Assembly: GCA_002716945.1 (NCBI GenBank)
Contig: PBCF01000002.1
Coordinates: forward strand, 482,374 to 546,373
Direction: 5' to 3'
Source: Gammaproteobacteria bacterium
Lineage (GTDB): Bacteria > Pseudomonadota > Gammaproteobacteria > GCA-002705445 > GCA-002716945
DNA: 64,000 nt
In this document: in pieces, positions 15,050-19,687 of the stretch
How positions within the stretch are numbered: the first letter of the stretch is position 1
Layout of the letters: each line of letters begins with the position of its first letter
Notes under the pieces: model-generated
Told to the model about the DNA's origin: nothing
The model's database searches: none
The model's input: only the letters and a program-made list of their open reading frames with translations
Program-made: the position numbers and the translations under genes

Positions 15050-15394
15050 GTGGATATGTTGAAAAAAGTCAGAAATTTACTTATCATCTTTCTTATGTTC
15101 TATGTTCCATCTTCATATTCAGATGTGATTGATGAAGGAAAAAAGCTAACATTTGAAAGGAAAAAAGGAAATTGTTTAGCGTGTCACATGATTGAAGATG
15201 GTGAATTAGCTGGAAACAATGGTCCTCCATTAATAGCTATGAAAGCTAGATTTCCAAATAAACAAGATCTCTTTAATCAAATTTGGGATGCGACTGAGAA
15301 AAATCCCAATTCCTTCATGCCTCCTTTTGGGAAACATGGTATATTAACTAAAAAAGAAATTAATAAGATAGTAGAATATCTTTATACTTTATGA
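15050..15394 (+). CDS. soxX: Sulfur oxidation c-type cytochrome SoxX
   Basis: GNCLACH heme motif, GNNGPPL, MPPFG; first gene of XYZA; start may be ATG 15056. Confidence 0.92.
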   Translation: MDMLKKVRNLLIIFLMFYVPSSYSDVIDEGKKLTFERKKGNCLACHMIEDGELAGNNGPPLIAMKARFPNKQDLFNQIWDATEKNPNSFMPPFGKHGILTKKEINKIVEYLYTL

Positions 15395-15401
15395 GGAATT
15401 T

Positions 15402-15866
15402 ATGAATAGAAGAAAATTTTTAAAAAATTCGTTACTAACTGTGGGCAGTATAATGTCTGTAGCTACTCTCTCTATTATACCTAAACGTGTATTTGCTTCT
15501 TGGCCAAAATCATCGTTTGACGAAAAAGATTTAGAGAAATCCATAAAAAGCGTTTATGGACACAGCGACTTGACAGAATCATCTAAAGTGATCTTAAAAG
15601 CACCAGAAATTGCTGAGAATGGAGCTATTGTTCCAATAAATGTAAAAACAAAATTAAAAAGAGTTGAGTCAATAATGGTTTTTGTTGAAAATAATCCACA
15701 ACCATTATCGAGTGGATATTACCTTAGTTCTTTAGCTGAACCGACCATTGGAACAAGAATTAAAATGGGAAAATCTTCTAAAGTAATTGCAGCAGTTAAA
15801 AGCGGAAATAAAGTATACAGTTCTTCAAAAGAAATTAAAATTACTATTGGTGGCTGTGGAGGATAA
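15402..15866 (+). CDS. soxY: Thiosulfate carrier protein SoxY
   Basis: Tat signal RRKFLK, APEIAENG, C-terminal TIGGCGG swinging arm. Confidence 0.97.
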   Translation: MNRRKFLKNSLLTVGSIMSVATLSIIPKRVFASWPKSSFDEKDLEKSIKSVYGHSDLTESSKVILKAPEIAENGAIVPINVKTKLKRVESIMVFVENNPQPLSSGYYLSSLAEPTIGTRIKMGKSSKVIAAVKSGNKVYSSSKEIKITIGGCGG

Positions 15867-15868
15867 TC

Positions 15869-16177
15869 ATGAGTACAATAAAAATTAGAGCAAAAGAAAG
15901 CAAAGGAATCGTAACTGTTAAAGCACTTATTAAACATCCTATGGAAACTGGAAAAAGAAAGAATAAAAAAACGGGTGAATTAATACCACCACACTACATT
16001 CAAGAAGTAATAGGACAAGCAAATGGAAAAGAAGTTATAAAAGTTTATTGGGGGCCAGCTGTATCTAAAAATCCTTACTTAACTTTTAAATATAAAGGTG
16101 AAAAGGGAGATAAAGTTGAACTAACGTGGGTTGATAATAAGGGTAATAGAGATTCAAAAAATCAAGCTGCTAAATAA
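15869..16177 (+). CDS. soxZ: Thiosulfate carrier complex subunit SoxZ
   Basis: HPMETG..K, HYIQ, SKNPY, WVDNKG; no signal peptide, as expected. Confidence 0.95.
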   Translation: MSTIKIRAKESKGIVTVKALIKHPMETGKRKNKKTGELIPPHYIQEVIGQANGKEVIKVYWGPAVSKNPYLTFKYKGEKGDKVELTWVDNKGNRDSKNQAAK

Positions 16178-16180
16178 ACT

Positions 16181-17020
16181 ATGAAAATGAAAAAATTTTT
16201 GATTATACCTTTTATAGTTTTATTAATTTTTGGTATTGAAGCAAAAACATCCCCTGAAGAAGACTTAACCGATTTTAGAAATCATTTCAAAGAACTTTTT
16301 CCTAATACACCATTCAGTGATTTTGCAAATGGTGTATATTCAATAGATAAATCATCACGAGAACAATGGGAGTCCATCGAAGATTTTCCTCCTTATGAAA
16401 TAAATATAGAGAATGGCGAAGAGTTATTCAATGAACCATTTAAAAATGGAAACAAATATGCATCATGTTTTGAAAATGGGGGAATTGGTATTCGTCAAAA
16501 TTATCCCTATTTTGATGAAAATAAAAATAAAATTATTACTCTTGAGTTAGCAATTAATAATTGTAGAAAAAAAAATAATGAAAAACCTTTAAATTATTAT
16601 AAGGGTGGAGATATGGCTGATATCTCAGCCTATATGGCTTACACATCTAGAGGTAATATAATTAATATAGAAATTCCAAATAATATGGAAGCTCTTGATG
16701 CTTATGAAGCAGGAAAGAGATTATACTTTACAAAAAAAGGACAATTAAATTTCTCATGTGCAGATTGTCATGTATGGAAATCAGGAACTAAGCTGCGTGC
16801 AGATATTACGAGTCCTGGAATAGGACATCCTACACACTTCCCTGTTTATAGATCTGTAGCAGGACGATTAGTAACATTACATGAAAGATATGCCGGCTGT
16901 CTTAACAGAATTAGAGCTAAACCTTATAAAGGACAGAGTGCGGAATATAGAAATCTTGAGTATTTTATGACTTTTATGAGCAATGGTTTAGAAATAAATG
17001 GTCCAGGTTCAAGAAAATAG
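16181..17020 (+). CDS. soxA: SoxA cytochrome c (mono-heme type)
   Basis: Single CADCH; GQLNFSC, FPVYR, RYAGC...RA active-site Cys; N-terminal Cys pair in place of a second heme. Confidence 0.93.
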   Translation: MKMKKFLIIPFIVLLIFGIEAKTSPEEDLTDFRNHFKELFPNTPFSDFANGVYSIDKSSREQWESIEDFPPYEINIENGEELFNEPFKNGNKYASCFENGGIGIRQNYPYFDENKNKIITLELAINNCRKKNNEKPLNYYKGGDMADISAYMAYTSRGNIINIEIPNNMEALDAYEAGKRLYFTKKGQLNFSCADCHVWKSGTKLRADITSPGIGHPTHFPVYRSVAGRLVTLHERYAGCLNRIRAKPYKGQSAEYRNLEYFMTFMSNGLEINGPGSRK

Positions 17021-17042: not shown

Positions 17043-17555
17043 ATGAAAATATTAGAAAATAAATTTGTATTAATATTTATTTTAACTTTATCACTGACGT
17101 CCTGCGCAACTATCGATGGAATGATGGCATCTGAAGATGAAAGTGCCCCGGAAGTCAAAGATGTTAGCTTAGATCAAAGGCTGCAGATTTCAATACCAAT
17201 TCCAGATAATTCTAAATATGCAACTGATAAAACTGTAATTTTTGGTGAGGGTAATAGATTTACTGGTGTTTTATATCTCATACATGACGAAAGCGCAGAA
17301 GATGTGGTTGATTTTTTTAGAAAAGCTATGATAAGTGAGGGCTGGACAGAACTTGCGATCGTTAGAAGTAATTTTATATTATTAAATTTTGATAAAGAAG
17401 ATAGATTTGCTACTATTAAAGTATCAAGAAAAGTCTTTAATAACTCTGAATCTGAAATAACCATAGGACCTAAAACATCTGCTACTATAAACAGAAGTAT
17501 AAATATCGAGCCAGAAACACAAGAAAGTATTGAAGAACCTTTTGAAATTCAATAA
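17043..17555 (+). CDS. Uncharacterised lipoprotein downstream of soxA
   Basis: Signal peptide with lipobox SLTSC; 170 aa; 22 nt after the soxA stop on the same strand. Confidence 0.75.
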   Translation: MKILENKFVLIFILTLSLTSCATIDGMMASEDESAPEVKDVSLDQRLQISIPIPDNSKYATDKTVIFGEGNRFTGVLYLIHDESAEDVVDFFRKAMISEGWTELAIVRSNFILLNFDKEDRFATIKVSRKVFNNSESEITIGPKTSATINRSINIEPETQESIEEPFEIQ

Positions 17556-17557
17556 AA

Positions 17558-18415
17558 CTATTTGATTTTATCTAACAAAACATCTATAAGATCATCAAAA
17601 TAAAAGTCTCTAAAAAAGTGATCTGCATCTTCAATCATAATCAACTTAATATTTTGTTTTTTCTTCATGTTTTGAATTCTTTTGTATGTATTTGGCACAA
17701 ATGTATCTTCAGATGCAGTAATTATATATATATTTTGATTAGTTAGTTGTAAAAGCCCAATTAAAGAATTCTCACTATCAATGTCATAATAGTCTAAAAA
17801 TGTTTTGTTACTAACTTCGGTATCGGCGCAACCTAAAAATTCAATTTTTAAAATCTTATAATTTTCTTTTTTAATTTTAGTAATATCTATGTTGTATTTT
17901 TTTTCGTATGTTTTTCTTGTGTTATGAAAAAAATCAGAGATTGGAGCTATTAAAAATATTGAGTTAACTAACAACTTATCTGATGTATTTAAATTGTGAT
18001 AAAATTGCATTATATTTAATCCACCTCTTGAATGACCAATTAGATAAATTTTTTCATATCCTAATTTTTGTATATAATTAAACCATAATTTTATTTCATT
18101 GATAGAATCTGATTGCAAATGTTTATGTTTTATATCACAAGGTAAGAAATCATTTGCACGATTATCGATGCCATAACTCAAATTTACTGACAATGAATCA
18201 ATATTATTTTCTAATAACGCTGAACCTAAAGATGTGATAAGTTCTAGATTTTGGTGCCCTCTAGTACCATGTAATATAAGAGCTATAGACTTTGATTTTG
18301 CATTCGTATAATGAAAACCATTTAATCTTTTACCGATATTATTTTCTATTTGCACTTTCTTACAAAATGCTTCTGTGGAAAAAAATAATAAACAGATAAT
18401 TAAAATATTTTTCAT
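17558..18415 (-). CDS. Secreted alpha/beta hydrolase (DUF1749-like)
   Basis: Signal peptide, LHGTRG, GHSRGG nucleophile elbow, ED.FV, DADHFF catalytic His. Confidence 0.82.
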   Translation of the reverse strand: MKNILIICLLFFSTEAFCKKVQIENNIGKRLNGFHYTNAKSKSIALILHGTRGHQNLELITSLGSALLENNIDSLSVNLSYGIDNRANDFLPCDIKHKHLQSDSINEIKLWFNYIQKLGYEKIYLIGHSRGGLNIMQFYHNLNTSDKLLVNSIFLIAPISDFFHNTRKTYEKKYNIDITKIKKENYKILKIEFLGCADTEVSNKTFLDYYDIDSENSLIGLLQLTNQNIYIITASEDTFVPNTYKRIQNMKKKQNIKLIMIEDADHFFRDFYFDDLIDVLLDKIK

Positions 18416-18422
18416 TTTCTTT

Positions 18423-18495
18423 TAGGGCGTACAGGATTCGAACCTGTGACAAATGGCTTAAAAGGCCACTGCTCTACCAACTGAGCTAACGCCCC
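18423..18495 (-). tRNA. tRNA-Lys(UUU), CCA not encoded
   Basis: Cloverleaf: GGGGCGT/ACGCCCT acceptor stem, GCTC/GAGC D-stem, GTGGC-CTTTTAA-GCCAT anticodon arm, ACAGG-TTCGAAT-CCTGT T-arm. Confidence 0.96.
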
Positions 18496-18496
18496 A

Positions 18497-19687
18497 TTAT
18501 ATTTTCTCTAATGTACGAAATCTACTAGGTATTAATTTTAAATCAGCTAATGCAGACTTTAAAGTATCAAGAAAACTACTATCTTCATAAACTGTTTTAT
18601 AATACTCTATTTTCATTGTAAGAGCAGCCCCTAAAATTATAGATGCTAAAGCAATAAATGAACCTATCGCTAAGGTTGAAACGCCTGCAACACCTTGACC
18701 AATTGTGCAGCCTAGAGATAAAACACCTCCAATACCAATAAGCACAGCACCTACTATATGTCTGAAAAAATCTTTTGTTGAAGAGAACCATTCAATCCTA
18801 AAACTACCAGAGAAAATTGAATAAATAAACGATCCTATAATAGTTGAAATTAAAATAGTAACTCCAAAAGTTAAATAATACATATCTGCGCTTTTAGTTG
18901 CGAATATTAATGTTTCGCCCATAGGATTAATAAAGCTTACTGATTGTACTCCTACTCCGGGTAACGGCGTATCTAAAAAATCATTAGCTTCAATCCACTC
19001 TTTGCCTAAAGAACCTCCTGTAATGTACCATGCTATTACTACAACCAGTCCGACCGTTAAGCCTGACAATATATTATCAGTATTCTGTATAAATTTTCCT
19101 TTCTTAAAAATAAAGATAAATAAAAGAACGGATATTATTACTGCAATAACAAAACTTAATGATTTGCTAGCACTGTCAGCAAATAAAATAGAAGGTATTG
19201 ATTGTTCATAAATTCCAAAATTGGCAAGATCTGGGCTTATTGGGCTCATCCAACTATGAAATACTATTCCATAAAAATCTGTTCTGGTCATTAGGTAAGC
19301 CATTATTCCAGCAACAATTATTACAATTAAGGATTTTAAATTACCCGCTCCAAATCTTATTAAAACTTTATTACCACATCCACTAGTTAATGTCATTCCA
19401 ATGCCAAACATTAATCCACCAAATATATATCTGGGCCAAAAGAAAACAGAATTCCTATATGGTATTCTAGAATCGCTTGCATTGATTATATTATTTAACT
19501 CTAAAAGAGAGACACCTAAAGTAGCTATGGCAATAGCCAACATCCAAGATTTAAATCTATTTAAATCGCCTATATTAACCCAGTCAGAAACGGCACCCAT
19601 TGTACAAAAATTGGTTTTATTGACTACAATACCAAGCATTAAACCTAATAATGCAACATATTGTAACAGTGTGTATGAAACTTCCAT
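18497..19687 (-). CDS. YeeE/YedE (SoxT/TsuA-type) sulfur-compound transporter
   Basis: Multi-TM; FCTMGA, SGCG, LGCTIGQG conserved Cys motifs. Confidence 0.9.
   Translation of the reverse strand: MEVSYTLLQYVALLGLMLGIVVNKTNFCTMGAVSDWVNIGDLNRFKSWMLAIAIATLGVSLLELNNIINASDSRIPYRNSVFFWPRYIFGGLMFGIGMTLTSGCGNKVLIRFGAGNLKSLIVIIVAGIMAYLMTRTDFYGIVFHSWMSPISPDLANFGIYEQSIPSILFADSASKSLSFVIAVIISVLLFIFIFKKGKFIQNTDNILSGLTVGLVVVIAWYITGGSLGKEWIEANDFLDTPLPGVGVQSVSFINPMGETLIFATKSADMYYLTFGVTILISTIIGSFIYSIFSGSFRIEWFSSTKDFFRHIVGAVLIGIGGVLSLGCTIGQGVAGVSTLAIGSFIALASIILGAALTMKIEYYKTVYEDSSFLDTLKSALADLKLIPSRFRTLEKI

What the first reader, a model, noticed from the sequence alone, without database searches (positions are those of the whole stretch)
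17558..18415. Exported alpha/beta hydrolase attached to a soxB-less Sox locus
Seen in sequence: signal peptide, GHSRGG Ser nucleophile, Asp (ED.FV), His (DADHFF), and Cys residues (LPCDI, LGCAD) that could form a disulfide. It is co-oriented with the sulfur transporter. Inference (speculative): a periplasmic hydrolase acting on a sulfur ester or thioester substrate, or on SoxY adducts. No such Sox accessory is known to me.
Basis: partly seen in the sequence, partly recalled or inferred. Interest (0 to 1): 0.55.

Follow-up and report, generated by a model that had tools for sequence, protein, structure and literature searches.

The report
Secreted hydrolase that tracks Sox
A secreted serine hydrolase next to the sulfur-oxidation (sox) genes belongs to an unnamed enzyme family found only in Sox-carrying bacteria among those searched, and it is predicted to dock onto the Sox carrier protein SoxYZ, so it is a good candidate for an undescribed helper enzyme of bacterial sulfur oxidation.

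Summary
Window 17558-18415, on the minus strand, encodes a 285-aa secreted alpha/beta hydrolase. It has Ser129 (GHSRGG), Asp237, His266 (HFFRD) and two Cys residues (93, 196) that are invariant across the family.

- A tRNA-Lys gene lies between yeeE and the hydrolase.
- soxB is present, 196 kb away in the same genome.

Synteny inside this ~1-Mb-genome order is weak evidence, because the whole block including housekeeping genes is conserved. Two relatives also deleted the hydrolase and kept sox.

Wider evidence does link the family to Sox:
- **Co-occurrence.** In 400 sampled genomes of the class, 49 of 51 carriers have SoxB, against 98 of 349 non-carriers. The two exceptions hold a SoxB fragment or SoxY. 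All 15 further named carriers also have SoxB.
- **Gene neighbourhood.** The gene lies in or near sox clusters in three other lineages with different gene orders.
- **Thioredoxin link.** It is fused to, or followed by, a CxxC thioredoxin-like domain in several lineages.
- **Predicted complex.** A model with the window's own SoxYZ scored 0.72 against 0.12 for the best control. The contacts use the family's signature residues and the base of the SoxY carrier arm.

Best reading (about 0.45): a SoxYZ-docking hydrolase that removes hydrolysable off-pathway adducts from the SoxY cysteine. The substrate is unknown. No paper describing such a Sox component was found. Another window of this scan noted the same gene order in another genome.

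The parts
17558..18415 (-). Secreted alpha/beta-fold serine hydrolase, 285 aa (P0001), member of an unnamed family
   Evidence: ORF and translation. Pfam Abhydrolase_1 36.5 bits and DUF1749 27.3 bits. AF2 model pLDDT 85. Foldseek best matches are feruloyl, cinnamoyl and chlorogenic acid esterases, TM 0.65-0.72 at 16-20% identity.
18362..18415 (-). Signal-peptide-like N-terminus (residues 1-18); probable signal peptidase I cut after A-F-C
   Evidence: Read from the sequence: Lys2, a hydrophobic run ILIICLLFF, and small residues at -3 and -1. Homologues share the pattern. This segment has low pLDDT in the model. No signal-peptide predictor was available.
18029..18031 (-). Codon of catalytic Ser129 in the GHSRGG nucleophile elbow
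   Evidence: Codon check. G127, H128, S129 and R130 are invariant in A2.
17705..17707 (-). Codon of catalytic Asp237
   Evidence: invariant.
17606..17620 (-). HFFRD motif (His266-Asp270): the catalytic His plus residues in the predicted SoxYZ contact surface
   Evidence: H266 and F268 are invariant and D270 nearly so. F267 and R269-F271 appear in the confident interface of the complex model.
18137..18139 (-). Codon of invariant Cys93, in loop 86-93; predicted to touch SoxY
17828..17830 (-). Codon of invariant Cys196, in the cap hairpin 188-202; presumed partner of Cys93
   Evidence: The disulfide is inferred. Model coordinates could not be read.
18422..18496 (-). tRNA-Lys (UUU) between yeeE and the hydrolase
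   Evidence: ARAGORN. Its 3' end lies 6 nt before the hydrolase ATG.
18497..19687 (-). YeeE/TsuA/SoxT-type sulfur transporter, 396 aa
   Evidence: Pfam Sulf_transp 182 bits. NCBIfam TsuA models score below their cut-offs.
15050..15394 (+). soxX (mono-haem cytochrome c)
   Evidence: CxxCH in the translation. Orthologues in the same position carry Cytochrome_CBB3 / Cytochrom_C Pfam hits.
15402..15866 (+). soxY, ending in the GGCGG carrier arm (Cys152)
   Evidence: Translation. Orthologues carry Pfam SoxY. Alignment A5.
15869..16177 (+). soxZ
   Evidence: Orthologues carry Pfam SoxZ. Alignment A6.
16181..17020 (+). soxA
   Evidence: TIGR04484 220 bits against a cut-off of 110.
17043..17555 (+). 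170-aa lipoprotein-like protein (lipobox LTSC) after soxA, convergent on the hydrolase; seen only in this order
   Evidence: No Pfam or NCBIfam family. Present in all 20 in-order loci and none of 60 outside loci.

Best explanation
The gene encodes a periplasmic Ser-His-Asp hydrolase that belongs to the Sox thiosulfate-oxidation system as a non-essential accessory.

Proposed mechanism. The enzyme docks on the carrier protein SoxYZ. It uses the conserved loop 86-93 and the HFFRD motif that flank its active-site entrance. These contact the same conserved SoxY face that surrounds the GGCGG arm. From there it hydrolyses off-pathway adducts from the SoxY carrier cysteine and returns SoxYZ to the cycle. 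Candidate adducts are the inactive S-sulfonate conjugate, or thioester or thiocarbonate adducts. This would be hydrolytic repair, complementing the reductive repair done by SoxS-type thioredoxins. That partnership would explain why the hydrolase is fused or adjacent to such domains in some lineages. The working analogy is the type II 'editing' thioesterases, which clear mis-loaded carrier proteins.

What is shown: the fold, the catalytic residues, the likely export signal, genome-level co-occurrence with Sox, recurrent sox and thioredoxin contexts, and a controlled complex model.

What is inferred: actual binding, which adduct is cleaved, and the role of the Cys93/Cys196 pair.
For: 1. Enzyme. 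Pfam, the AF2 model and Foldseek agree on an alpha/beta hydrolase. The triad and both Cys residues are invariant across the family.

2. Co-occurrence with SoxB. In 400 sampled genomes of the class, the family (profile A2, E<=1e-20) occurs in 51 and SoxB in 147. 49 of 51 carriers have SoxB, against 98 of 349 non-carriers. Of the two exceptions, one has a 323-bit SoxB fragment and the other has SoxY at 110 bits.

3. Control for autotrophy. Among RuBisCO-negative genomes, 13 of 13 carriers have SoxB, against 12 of 220 non-carriers. RuBisCO itself is present in only 38 of 51 carriers.

4. Other classes and lifestyles. SoxB was found in all 15 further named carriers: 7 Alphaproteobacteria, 3 Burkholderiales, 2 Marinobacterium, and one each of Neptuniibacter, Woeseiaceae and Piscirickettsiaceae.

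5. Gene neighbourhood outside the window's order, in three different architectures:
- L069: soxF..soxR soxS | hydrolase-orf241 | soxV soxB soxA.
- L070 (Congregibacter): DsrE | hydrolase-orf172 | soxB..soxAZYX.
- L081 (Woeseiaceae): hydrolase-thioredoxin, with soxXYZA 6 kb away.

6. Thioredoxin link. Seven family representatives are hydrolase + Thioredoxin_2 fusions with invariant CxxC and cis-Pro. A separate thioredoxin-like gene follows the hydrolase in L059, L066, L078 and L081.

7. Complex model of SoxY(33-154) + SoxZ + hydrolase(19-285). Score 0.72, best of 3 controls 0.12. That mark was reached by 58 of 80 solved complexes and 2 of 110 mismatched pairs. The three runs agree in at least 91% of contacts and the partner's pLDDT is at least 90. 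The counts hold only roughly, because I supplied my own alignments and three chains. Confident contacts are hydrolase 56-58, 88-90, C93, F267, R269-F271 and D274, with SoxY 68-72, 76, 78, 119 and 148-150 and SoxZ 5, 7, 18, 20 and 70. On the hydrolase side these are family-signature residues next to catalytic His266. On the SoxY side they form the conserved patch at the base of the carrier arm.

8. Candidate substrate. SoxY-S-sulfonate is reported as an inactive conjugate that is not a pathway intermediate (PMC5336275). A dead-end species needing removal therefore exists.
Against: - About two thirds of SoxB-positive genomes lack the family (98 of 147). It cannot be a core Sox component.
- Two near-complete relatives, G026 (96% complete) and G027 (98%), cleanly lost the gene and kept yeeE and soxXYZA.
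- In 57 of 60 loci outside the order no sox gene lies within 8 kb, and the immediate neighbours are heterogeneous.
- Related genomes are not independent. The gene tree largely follows taxonomy, so old vertical inheritance within sulfur-oxidising lineages inflates the co-occurrence statistics.
- The nearest solved structures are ordinary carboxylesterases and lipases.
- No alpha/beta hydrolase is known to me to cleave S-sulfonates.
- The complex model is a prediction outside its calibration. The catalytic Ser and SoxY Cys152 are not among the confidently placed contacts.
Confidence: 0.45

Rival explanations
1. It is an ordinary periplasmic carboxylesterase or lipase acting on some organic ester, with no direct part in Sox. 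The co-occurrence reflects shared ancestry and habitat of sulfur-oxidising Pseudomonadota. The local sox adjacency is frozen synteny, and the complex model is a false positive.
For: - Best structural and sequence matches are feruloyl, cinnamoyl and chlorogenic acid esterases, Est1E, a lipase, a PETase and monoglyceride lipases.
- The whole block aspS-nadA-yebC-ruvC-queEC-yeeE-tRNA-hydrolase | soxAZYX-M48 | tusA-ilv is syntenic across the order.
- The gene was lost in G026 and G027 with sox intact.
- Neighbours elsewhere are mostly unrelated.
- The gene tree mostly follows taxonomy.
Against: - 66 of 66 carriers examined hold Sox parts, including heterotrophs and three classes, against a 37% base rate for SoxB.
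- 13 of 13 against 12 of 220 within RuBisCO-negative genomes.
- Three independent sox-embedded architectures.
- Repeated fusion to CxxC thioredoxin-like domains.
- The complex model scored 0.72 against 0.12, and two unrelated proteins of similar size scored 0.00.
Confidence: 0.25
2. It is a thiol-based sulfur-handling protein on a hydrolase scaffold. Cys93 and Cys196 form a redox-active pair that takes sulfane sulfur from SoxY persulfide or polysulfide and passes it on, for example toward the YeeE/SoxT importer. The pair is recycled by the fused or neighbouring thioredoxin.
For: - Both Cys residues are invariant.
- Cys93 lies in the predicted SoxY contact.
- CxxC thioredoxin fusions and neighbours occur in several lineages.
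- Rhodanese, DsrE and ArsR-rhodanese genes recur nearby.
- yeeE is the upstream gene here, and this genome has no SoxC match over the cut-off.
Against: - The Ser-His-Asp triad and oxyanion motif are equally invariant, which argues for retained hydrolysis.
- The family shows no marked preference for SoxC-lacking genomes: 11 of 49 SoxB-positive carriers have SoxC, against 13 of 98 SoxB-positive non-carriers.
- A single conserved Cys pair in an exported protein is most simply a structural disulfide.
Confidence: 0.1
3. It is a hydrolase for a free low-molecular-weight sulfur compound in the periplasm, such as a polythionate like trithionate, or an organic thioester or thiosulfate ester. Its product feeds Sox, and no protein-protein contact is involved.
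For: - Strict co-occurrence with Sox.
- Conserved Arg86 and Arg130, and mostly conserved Arg269, near the catalytic residues suggest an anionic substrate (an inference from sequence).
- The gene usually stands alone rather than inside a sox operon.
Against: - The complex model places family-signature residues on SoxYZ.
- Thioredoxin fusions fit a protein-thiol substrate better.
- No precedent known to me for polythionate hydrolysis by this fold.
Confidence: 0.1

Closest known systems
Bacterial feruloyl / cinnamoyl / chlorogenic acid esterases (LJ0536, PDB 3pf8/3pf9; L. buchneri 7z2u; L. helveticus 8skm; Est1E 2wtm)
   Same: Alpha/beta-hydrolase core with a Ser-His-Asp triad and an inserted cap. 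Foldseek probability 1.0, TM 0.65-0.72. The family profile matches them at E 1e-10 to 1e-7.
   Different: - Only 16-20% identity.
- Those enzymes are not exported Sox-linked proteins.
- This family has GHSRGG in place of LJ0536's GHSQGG (alignment), an extra loop 79-100 carrying invariant R86 and C93, a second invariant Cys in the cap, and the HFFRD motif.
- It is restricted to Sox-bearing genomes among those searched.
SoxB thiosulfohydrolase
   Same: By the model, a periplasmic hydrolase that acts on groups carried by the SoxY arm. The predicted contact uses the conserved SoxY patch around the carrier arm (from my own knowledge, SoxB docks on that same face).
   Different: Unrelated fold and chemistry. 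SoxB is a 5'-nucleotidase-type enzyme (Pfam 5_nucleotid_C), dimanganese by my own knowledge. It is encoded separately in this genome and in essentially all carriers, so the hydrolase is not a replacement for it.
SoxS / SoxW periplasmic thioredoxins (SoxYZ reactivation)
   Same: Accessory rather than core, and connected with keeping SoxY usable. A thioredoxin-like CxxC domain is fused to or follows the hydrolase in several lineages, and soxS is the divergent neighbour in L069.
   Different: Different fold and reaction: thiol-disulfide exchange rather than hydrolysis. The window's own hydrolase has no fused thioredoxin domain.
Type II (editing) thioesterases of polyketide and non-ribosomal peptide synthases
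   Same: A working analogy only: alpha/beta-hydrolase enzymes that free a carrier protein's thiol from wrong adducts.
   Different: They are cytoplasmic and act on phosphopantetheine arms. No sequence relationship was detected or tested here.
SoxH / SoxG (metallo-beta-lactamase-fold periplasmic hydrolases in some sox clusters)
   Same: Dispensable periplasmic hydrolases of unclear substrate encoded with sox genes (from my own knowledge of Paracoccus sox clusters).
   Different: Different fold and a metal-dependent mechanism. Not compared by any tool here.

Membership tests
Alpha/beta-hydrolase fold serine hydrolases (Pfam clan AB_hydrolase) | Profile match above the curated threshold | tested here: met
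   Abhydrolase_1 36.5 bits against a cut-off of 25.8.
Alpha/beta-hydrolase fold serine hydrolases (Pfam clan AB_hydrolase) | G-x-S-x-G nucleophile elbow with acid and His in the order Ser...Asp...His, conserved among relatives | tested here: met
   GHSRG with Ser129, Asp237 and His266, all invariant in 28 sequences.
Alpha/beta-hydrolase fold serine hydrolases (Pfam clan AB_hydrolase) | Central beta-sheet flanked by helices | tested here: met
   AF2 model pLDDT 85, pTM 0.86. At least 500 Foldseek matches to solved alpha/beta hydrolases.
Feruloyl / cinnamoyl esterases of the LJ0536 / Est1E type | Close structural likeness including the inserted substrate-binding domain | tested here: inconclusive
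   TM 0.65-0.72, rmsd 3.4-4.7 A, 16-20% identity. The cap region could not be compared residue by residue, because the model coordinates were not readable.
Feruloyl / cinnamoyl esterases of the LJ0536 / Est1E type | Hydrolysis of hydroxycinnamoyl esters | not testable with these tools
   Needs an enzyme assay.
Pfam DUF1749 (PF08538) | Full-length match above the gathering score | tested here: inconclusive
   27.3 bits against a cut-off of 24, but only residues 106-216 match profile positions 85-208 of 299.
Sox sulfur-oxidation system (as an accessory component) | Genome-level co-occurrence with core sox genes | tested here: met
   49 of 51 carriers have SoxB against 98 of 349 non-carriers. The two exceptions hold a SoxB fragment or SoxY. 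15 of 15 further named carriers have SoxB. Related genomes are not independent.
Sox sulfur-oxidation system (as an accessory component) | Encoded within or next to sox gene clusters in independent lineages | tested here: inconclusive
   True for the window's order and for L069, L070 and L081, each with a different gene order. Not true for 57 of 60 other loci.
Sox sulfur-oxidation system (as an accessory component) | Physical interaction with a Sox protein | tested here: inconclusive
   Prediction only. Score 0.72 against 0.12 for the best of 3 controls. That mark was reached by 58 of 80 solved complexes and 2 of 110 mismatched pairs. Runs agree in at least 91% of contacts and the partner's pLDDT is at least 90.
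Sox sulfur-oxidation system (as an accessory component) | Effect on thiosulfate oxidation or on SoxY conjugates | not testable with these tools
   Needs genetics or biochemistry. The family's absence from 98 of 147 SoxB-positive genomes shows it is not a core part.
SoxB thiosulfohydrolase (TIGR04486) | Match to the SoxB model | tested here: not met
   NCBIfam gave no SoxB hit for P0001. The genome's real SoxB lies elsewhere at 766 bits.

The most novel reading that the evidence does not exclude
This unnamed alpha/beta-hydrolase family is a widespread, so far unrecognised Sox accessory enzyme. It docks on SoxYZ and hydrolytically edits the carrier cysteine, for example by clearing the dead-end S-sulfonate conjugate. 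It works alongside SoxS-type thioredoxins. This would be a carrier-protein proofreading step in inorganic sulfur oxidation, analogous to type II thioesterases.
Probability: 0.4. Interest if true: 0.8.

Novelty: new variant of a known kind. Interest (0 to 1): 0.68.

Why it matters
The Sox pathway is the textbook route of bacterial thiosulfate oxidation. How SoxYZ is kept in a usable state, and how dead-end conjugates are removed, is only partly understood. One paper reports that SoxY-S-sulfonate is inactive and not a pathway intermediate (PMC5336275).

If this family is a SoxYZ-docking hydrolase, it adds a new enzyme class to the Sox system. In the class sample about one third of SoxB-positive genomes carry it, across at least three proteobacterial classes.

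The idea is directly testable with purified proteins and mass spectrometry of SoxY. Culturable carriers exist, including Marinobacterium halophilum DSM 17586, Thioalkalivibrio strains, Magnetovibrio blakemorei MV-1 and Thiocapsa sp. KS1.

If the idea is wrong, the family still serves as a fairly clean genomic marker of Sox-bearing Pseudomonadota.

Tried and rejected
- **Local synteny as evidence.** All homologues down to 37% identity sit in the same long syntenic block with aspS, nadA, yebC, ruvC, queEC, M48, tusA and ilvBHC. This is one ancestral arrangement, not repeated association.
- **A yeeE-hydrolase operon.** A tRNA-Lys gene fills the gap. Promoter-like sites number 16 against 18 expected, and no terminator-like site was found. 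Nothing can be said about transcription.
- **A conserved operon partner outside the order.** 105 immediate neighbours gave 77 Pfam families, none present in more than 5.
- **The 170-aa lipoprotein as a shared partner.** It shows no similarity to the 172-aa ORF that follows the Congregibacter hydrolase. It was not found outside the order.
- **Autotrophy as the real correlate.** RuBisCO is present in only 38 of 51 carriers, and the window's own genome has none.
- **A link to truncated Sox (no SoxCD).** 11 of 51 carriers have SoxC, so there is no clear preference.
- **Literature.** Full-text searches and two papers gave no alpha/beta hydrolase described as a Sox component.
- **Family name.** NCBIfam gave no family, and ESM Atlas gave only generic 'alpha/beta hydrolase' names.
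- **'Pimeloyl-ACP methyl ester carboxylesterase'.** This automatic source label was rejected as a function, because the protein carries an export signal.
- **Distances in the model.** Cys93-Cys196 and Ser129-SoxY Cys152 distances could not be measured, because model coordinates are not exposed to scripts.
Full report
**What is at the coordinates.** Window 17558-18415 holds a 285-aa ORF on the minus strand.
- an N-terminal signal-like segment (MKNILIICLLFFSTEAFC|KK);
- HGTRG;
- GHSRGG with Ser129;
- SEDTFV with Asp237;
- DADHFFRD with His266;
- Cys93 (LPCDI) and Cys196 (LGCAD).

Pfam places the protein in the alpha/beta-hydrolase fold. Abhydrolase_1 scores 36.5 bits against a cut-off of 25.8, and there is a partial DUF1749 match. 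NCBIfam has no family for it. An AlphaFold model built on 14 homologues has mean pLDDT 85 and pTM 0.86. Its best solved look-alikes are lactobacillal feruloyl, cinnamoyl and chlorogenic acid esterases, Est1E, a thermophilic lipase, a PETase and monoglyceride lipases, at TM 0.65-0.72 and 16-20% identity. A profile search of PDB sequences finds the same enzymes. In detail: this is a secreted Ser-His-Asp hydrolase.

**Surroundings.** On the plus strand lie soxX, soxY (ending GGCGG), soxZ and soxA (TIGR04484, 220 bits), followed by a 170-aa lipoprotein-like ORF with no known family. The hydrolase converges on that ORF, with 2 nt between the stop codons. Upstream of the hydrolase, on its own strand, is a YeeE/TsuA/SoxT-type transporter (Sulf_transp, 182 bits). 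A tRNA-Lys(UUU) gene at 18422-18496 fills the gap between them, and the hydrolase ATG comes 6 nt after the tRNA. 'soxB-less' applies to the window only. The genome (1.09 Mb, 6 contigs, window GC 28.6%) has soxB at 766 bits, 196 kb away on the same contig. No SoxC match reaches the cut-off and no RuBisCO was found. The organism therefore looks like a streamlined marine thiosulfate-oxidising heterotroph with a split, truncated Sox system.

**Why the local gene order proves little.** The big protein database holds 202 relatives. Six of them, at 37-66% identity, were looked up on long contigs. All six sit in the same extended block: aspS-nadA-yebC-ruvC-queE-queC-yeeE-(tRNA)-hydrolase | lipoprotein-soxAZYX-M48 peptidase | tusA-ilvBHC. 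The window's order equals one family of 37 species-level genomes of about 1 Mb. The hydrolase is found in 32 of them and soxA in 34. This is one inherited arrangement. Two near-complete members, G026 (96% complete) and G027 (98%), have yeeE followed directly by the lipoprotein gene and soxAZYX, with no hydrolase match anywhere in the genome. The enzyme is therefore dispensable for Sox in those lineages.

**The wider family.** A profile search of 1.84 billion representatives found 1051 proteins at E<=1e-3 and 185 at E<=1e-30. In an alignment of 28 members down to 27% identity, the invariant residues are H49, G50, R86, C93, E107, W111, G127-H128-S129-R130, A157, P158, C196, D237, H266 and F268. 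This is a well-defined, unnamed family. ESM Atlas offers only generic 'alpha/beta hydrolase' names for it.

**Phylogenetic profile.** I sampled 400 genomes evenly across the class.
- The family (E<=1e-20) occurs in 51 genomes and SoxB (E<=1e-100) in 147.
- 49 of the 51 carriers have SoxB, against 98 of 349 non-carriers.
- Of the two exceptions, G202 has the C-terminal half of SoxB at 323 bits and G257 has SoxY at 110 bits.
- As a control for lifestyle, RuBisCO is present in only 38 of 51 carriers. Within RuBisCO-negative genomes, 13 of 13 carriers have SoxB against 12 of 220 non-carriers.
- SoxC is present in 11 of 51 carriers, so the family occurs with both complete and truncated Sox systems.
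- Outside the sample, all 15 named carriers tested have SoxB. They are 7 Alphaproteobacteria, 3 Burkholderiales, 2 Marinobacterium, and one each of Neptuniibacter, Woeseiaceae and Piscirickettsiaceae. In two of them only contig-end pieces were found.

The rule in the data is therefore that the hydrolase implies Sox, while only about one third of Sox genomes have the hydrolase. One caveat matters. The genomes are related and the gene tree mostly follows taxonomy. The Fisher values (8e-22 overall, 8e-15 in RuBisCO-negative genomes) overstate the evidence, and no phylogeny-corrected test could be run.

**Gene neighbourhoods outside the order.** Of 60 loci from other lineages, three have sox genes within 8 kb, each in a different arrangement:
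- L069: soxF-like FCSD, soxR, soxS | hydrolase-orf241 | soxV, soxB, soxA.
- L070 (Congregibacter): DsrE | hydrolase-orf172 | soxB..soxA-Z-Y-X.
- L081 (Woeseiaceae): hydrolase-thioredoxin, with soxXYZA 6 kb downstream.

Other recurring neighbours are:
- a CxxC thioredoxin-like gene directly after the hydrolase (L059, L066, L078, L081);
- ArsR-rhodanese regulators close to it, directly divergent in L099 (L092, L093, L099, L104);
- VTT/DedA proteins with or without a rhodanese domain, or a rhodanese protein alone as in L052 (11 loci);
- flavocytochrome c sulfide dehydrogenase (L063, L075, L069).

Seven of the eight 410-453-aa family representatives scanned are hydrolase + Thioredoxin_2 fusions, with invariant CxxC and cis-Pro. 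Even so, the immediate neighbours are heterogeneous overall: 77 Pfam families among 105 neighbours, none in more than 5. The gene usually stands alone.

**Predicted complex.** I folded SoxY (33-154), SoxZ and the mature hydrolase (19-285), each with an alignment, and scored the hydrolase as the partner.
- The score was 0.72 and the best of 3 controls was 0.12.
- That mark was reached by 58 of 80 solved complexes and 2 of 110 mismatched pairs.
- The three runs agree in at least 91% of contacts, and the partner's pLDDT is at least 90.
- The tool warns that the counts hold only roughly here, because I used my own alignments and three chains.
- It also states that the model supports binding but does not show it.
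- No solved hydrolase-SoxYZ complex is known to me, so a pass from memory is unlikely.

The confident contacts are informative. On the hydrolase they are 56-58, 88-90, Cys93, Phe267, Arg269-Phe271 and Asp274. These are the family's signature loop and its HFFRD motif, next to catalytic His266. On SoxY they are 68-72, 76, 78, 119 and 148-150, the most conserved SoxY patch and the base of the GGCGG arm. SoxZ contributes residues 5, 7, 18, 20 and 70. Ser129 and SoxY Cys152 are not among the confidently placed contacts.

**Interpretation.** The most likely reading (about 0.45) is a non-essential Sox accessory. It would be a periplasmic serine hydrolase that docks on SoxYZ and removes hydrolysable off-pathway adducts from the carrier cysteine. 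This would complement reductive repair by SoxS-type thioredoxins. A candidate substrate exists in the literature: SoxY-S-sulfonate is an inactive conjugate and not a pathway intermediate (PMC5336275). Thioester or thiocarbonate adducts are alternatives. The identity of the substrate is pure inference.

The rivals are:
- an ordinary esterase whose link to Sox is ancestral or ecological (0.25);
- a thiol-based sulfane-sulfur relay using the Cys pair (0.10);
- a hydrolase for a free sulfur compound such as a polythionate (0.10).

**Comparison with what is known.** By fold the protein is a member of the alpha/beta-hydrolase superfamily and most resembles bacterial feruloyl esterases. It is not shown to be one. 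It is unrelated to SoxB. From my own knowledge it is also unrelated to the metallo-beta-lactamase-fold SoxH and SoxG. Full-text searches and two recent Sox papers gave no alpha/beta hydrolase described as a Sox component. I therefore rate it a new variant of a known kind: an uncharacterised hydrolase family with a new, testable role in a well-known pathway. Earlier notes of this scan recorded the same gene order on this window and in another genome. I verified the tRNA and the synteny, and found soxB elsewhere in the genome.

Noticed in passing
window 18422-18496 (-); proteins P0088, P0099, P0103, P0111, P0114: tRNA-Lys(UUU) sits 0-1 nt after the yeeE stop and 6 nt before the hydrolase ATG. 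In public gene calls of relatives the hydrolase ORF is read through this tRNA gene. That gives a false N-terminal extension (..VEQWPFKPFVTGSNPVRP..) and explains the apparent 'stops inside' matches in genus g2.
   Followed up: partly
window 17043-17555 (+): A 170-aa lipoprotein-like ORF (lipobox LTSC, acidic tail) follows soxA directly. It is present in all 20 in-order loci, absent from 60 loci elsewhere, and has no Pfam or NCBIfam family. It lies where some sox clusters carry small accessory subunits.
   Followed up: partly
L011 (G027:C1:116000-128000) and L012 (G026:C18:55500-67500): Two near-complete relatives have a clean deletion of the hydrolase between yeeE and the lipoprotein-soxAZYX genes.
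   Followed up: yes
proteins P0133, P0137, P0146, P0150, P0173, P0174, P0236; loci L059, L066, L078, L080, L081: Hydrolase + thioredoxin-like (CxxC, cis-Pro) fusion proteins occur, as do hydrolase-thioredoxin gene pairs with overlapping stop and start. One further representative (P0202) carries a C-terminal DUF4440 domain instead.
   Followed up: partly
L092:1105-1776, L093:3286-4029, L099:7150-7806, L104:1-557; L099:11058-12014, L104:9410-10489: ArsR-HTH + rhodanese fusion regulators lie close to the hydrolase gene, directly divergent in L099. VTT/DedA-rhodanese membrane proteins lie nearby. This occurs in Sedimenticola, Thiohalomonas, Thiocapsa and relatives, and may be a sulfane-sulfur-responsive module.
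   Followed up: partly
own genome G000:C4:283875-284345 (outside the window), just upstream of soxB: A 308-aa open frame weakly resembles the molybdenum-domain part of SoxC (26 bits, far below the cut-off). Its identity was not examined.
   Followed up: no
own genome G000: No RuBisCO large subunit and no SoxC match over the cut-off were found in a 100%-complete 1.09-Mb genome that has soxXYZA and soxB. This suggests a streamlined thiosulfate-oxidising heterotroph.
   Followed up: partly
L043:9264-10361 (-) and the shared block in L046, L047, L048, L050, L053, L058, L061: In one gammaproteobacterial lineage a second alpha/beta hydrolase (DUF900, 146 bits) lies about 400 nt downstream of the family member, within a conserved downstream gene block that was not annotated further.
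   Followed up: no
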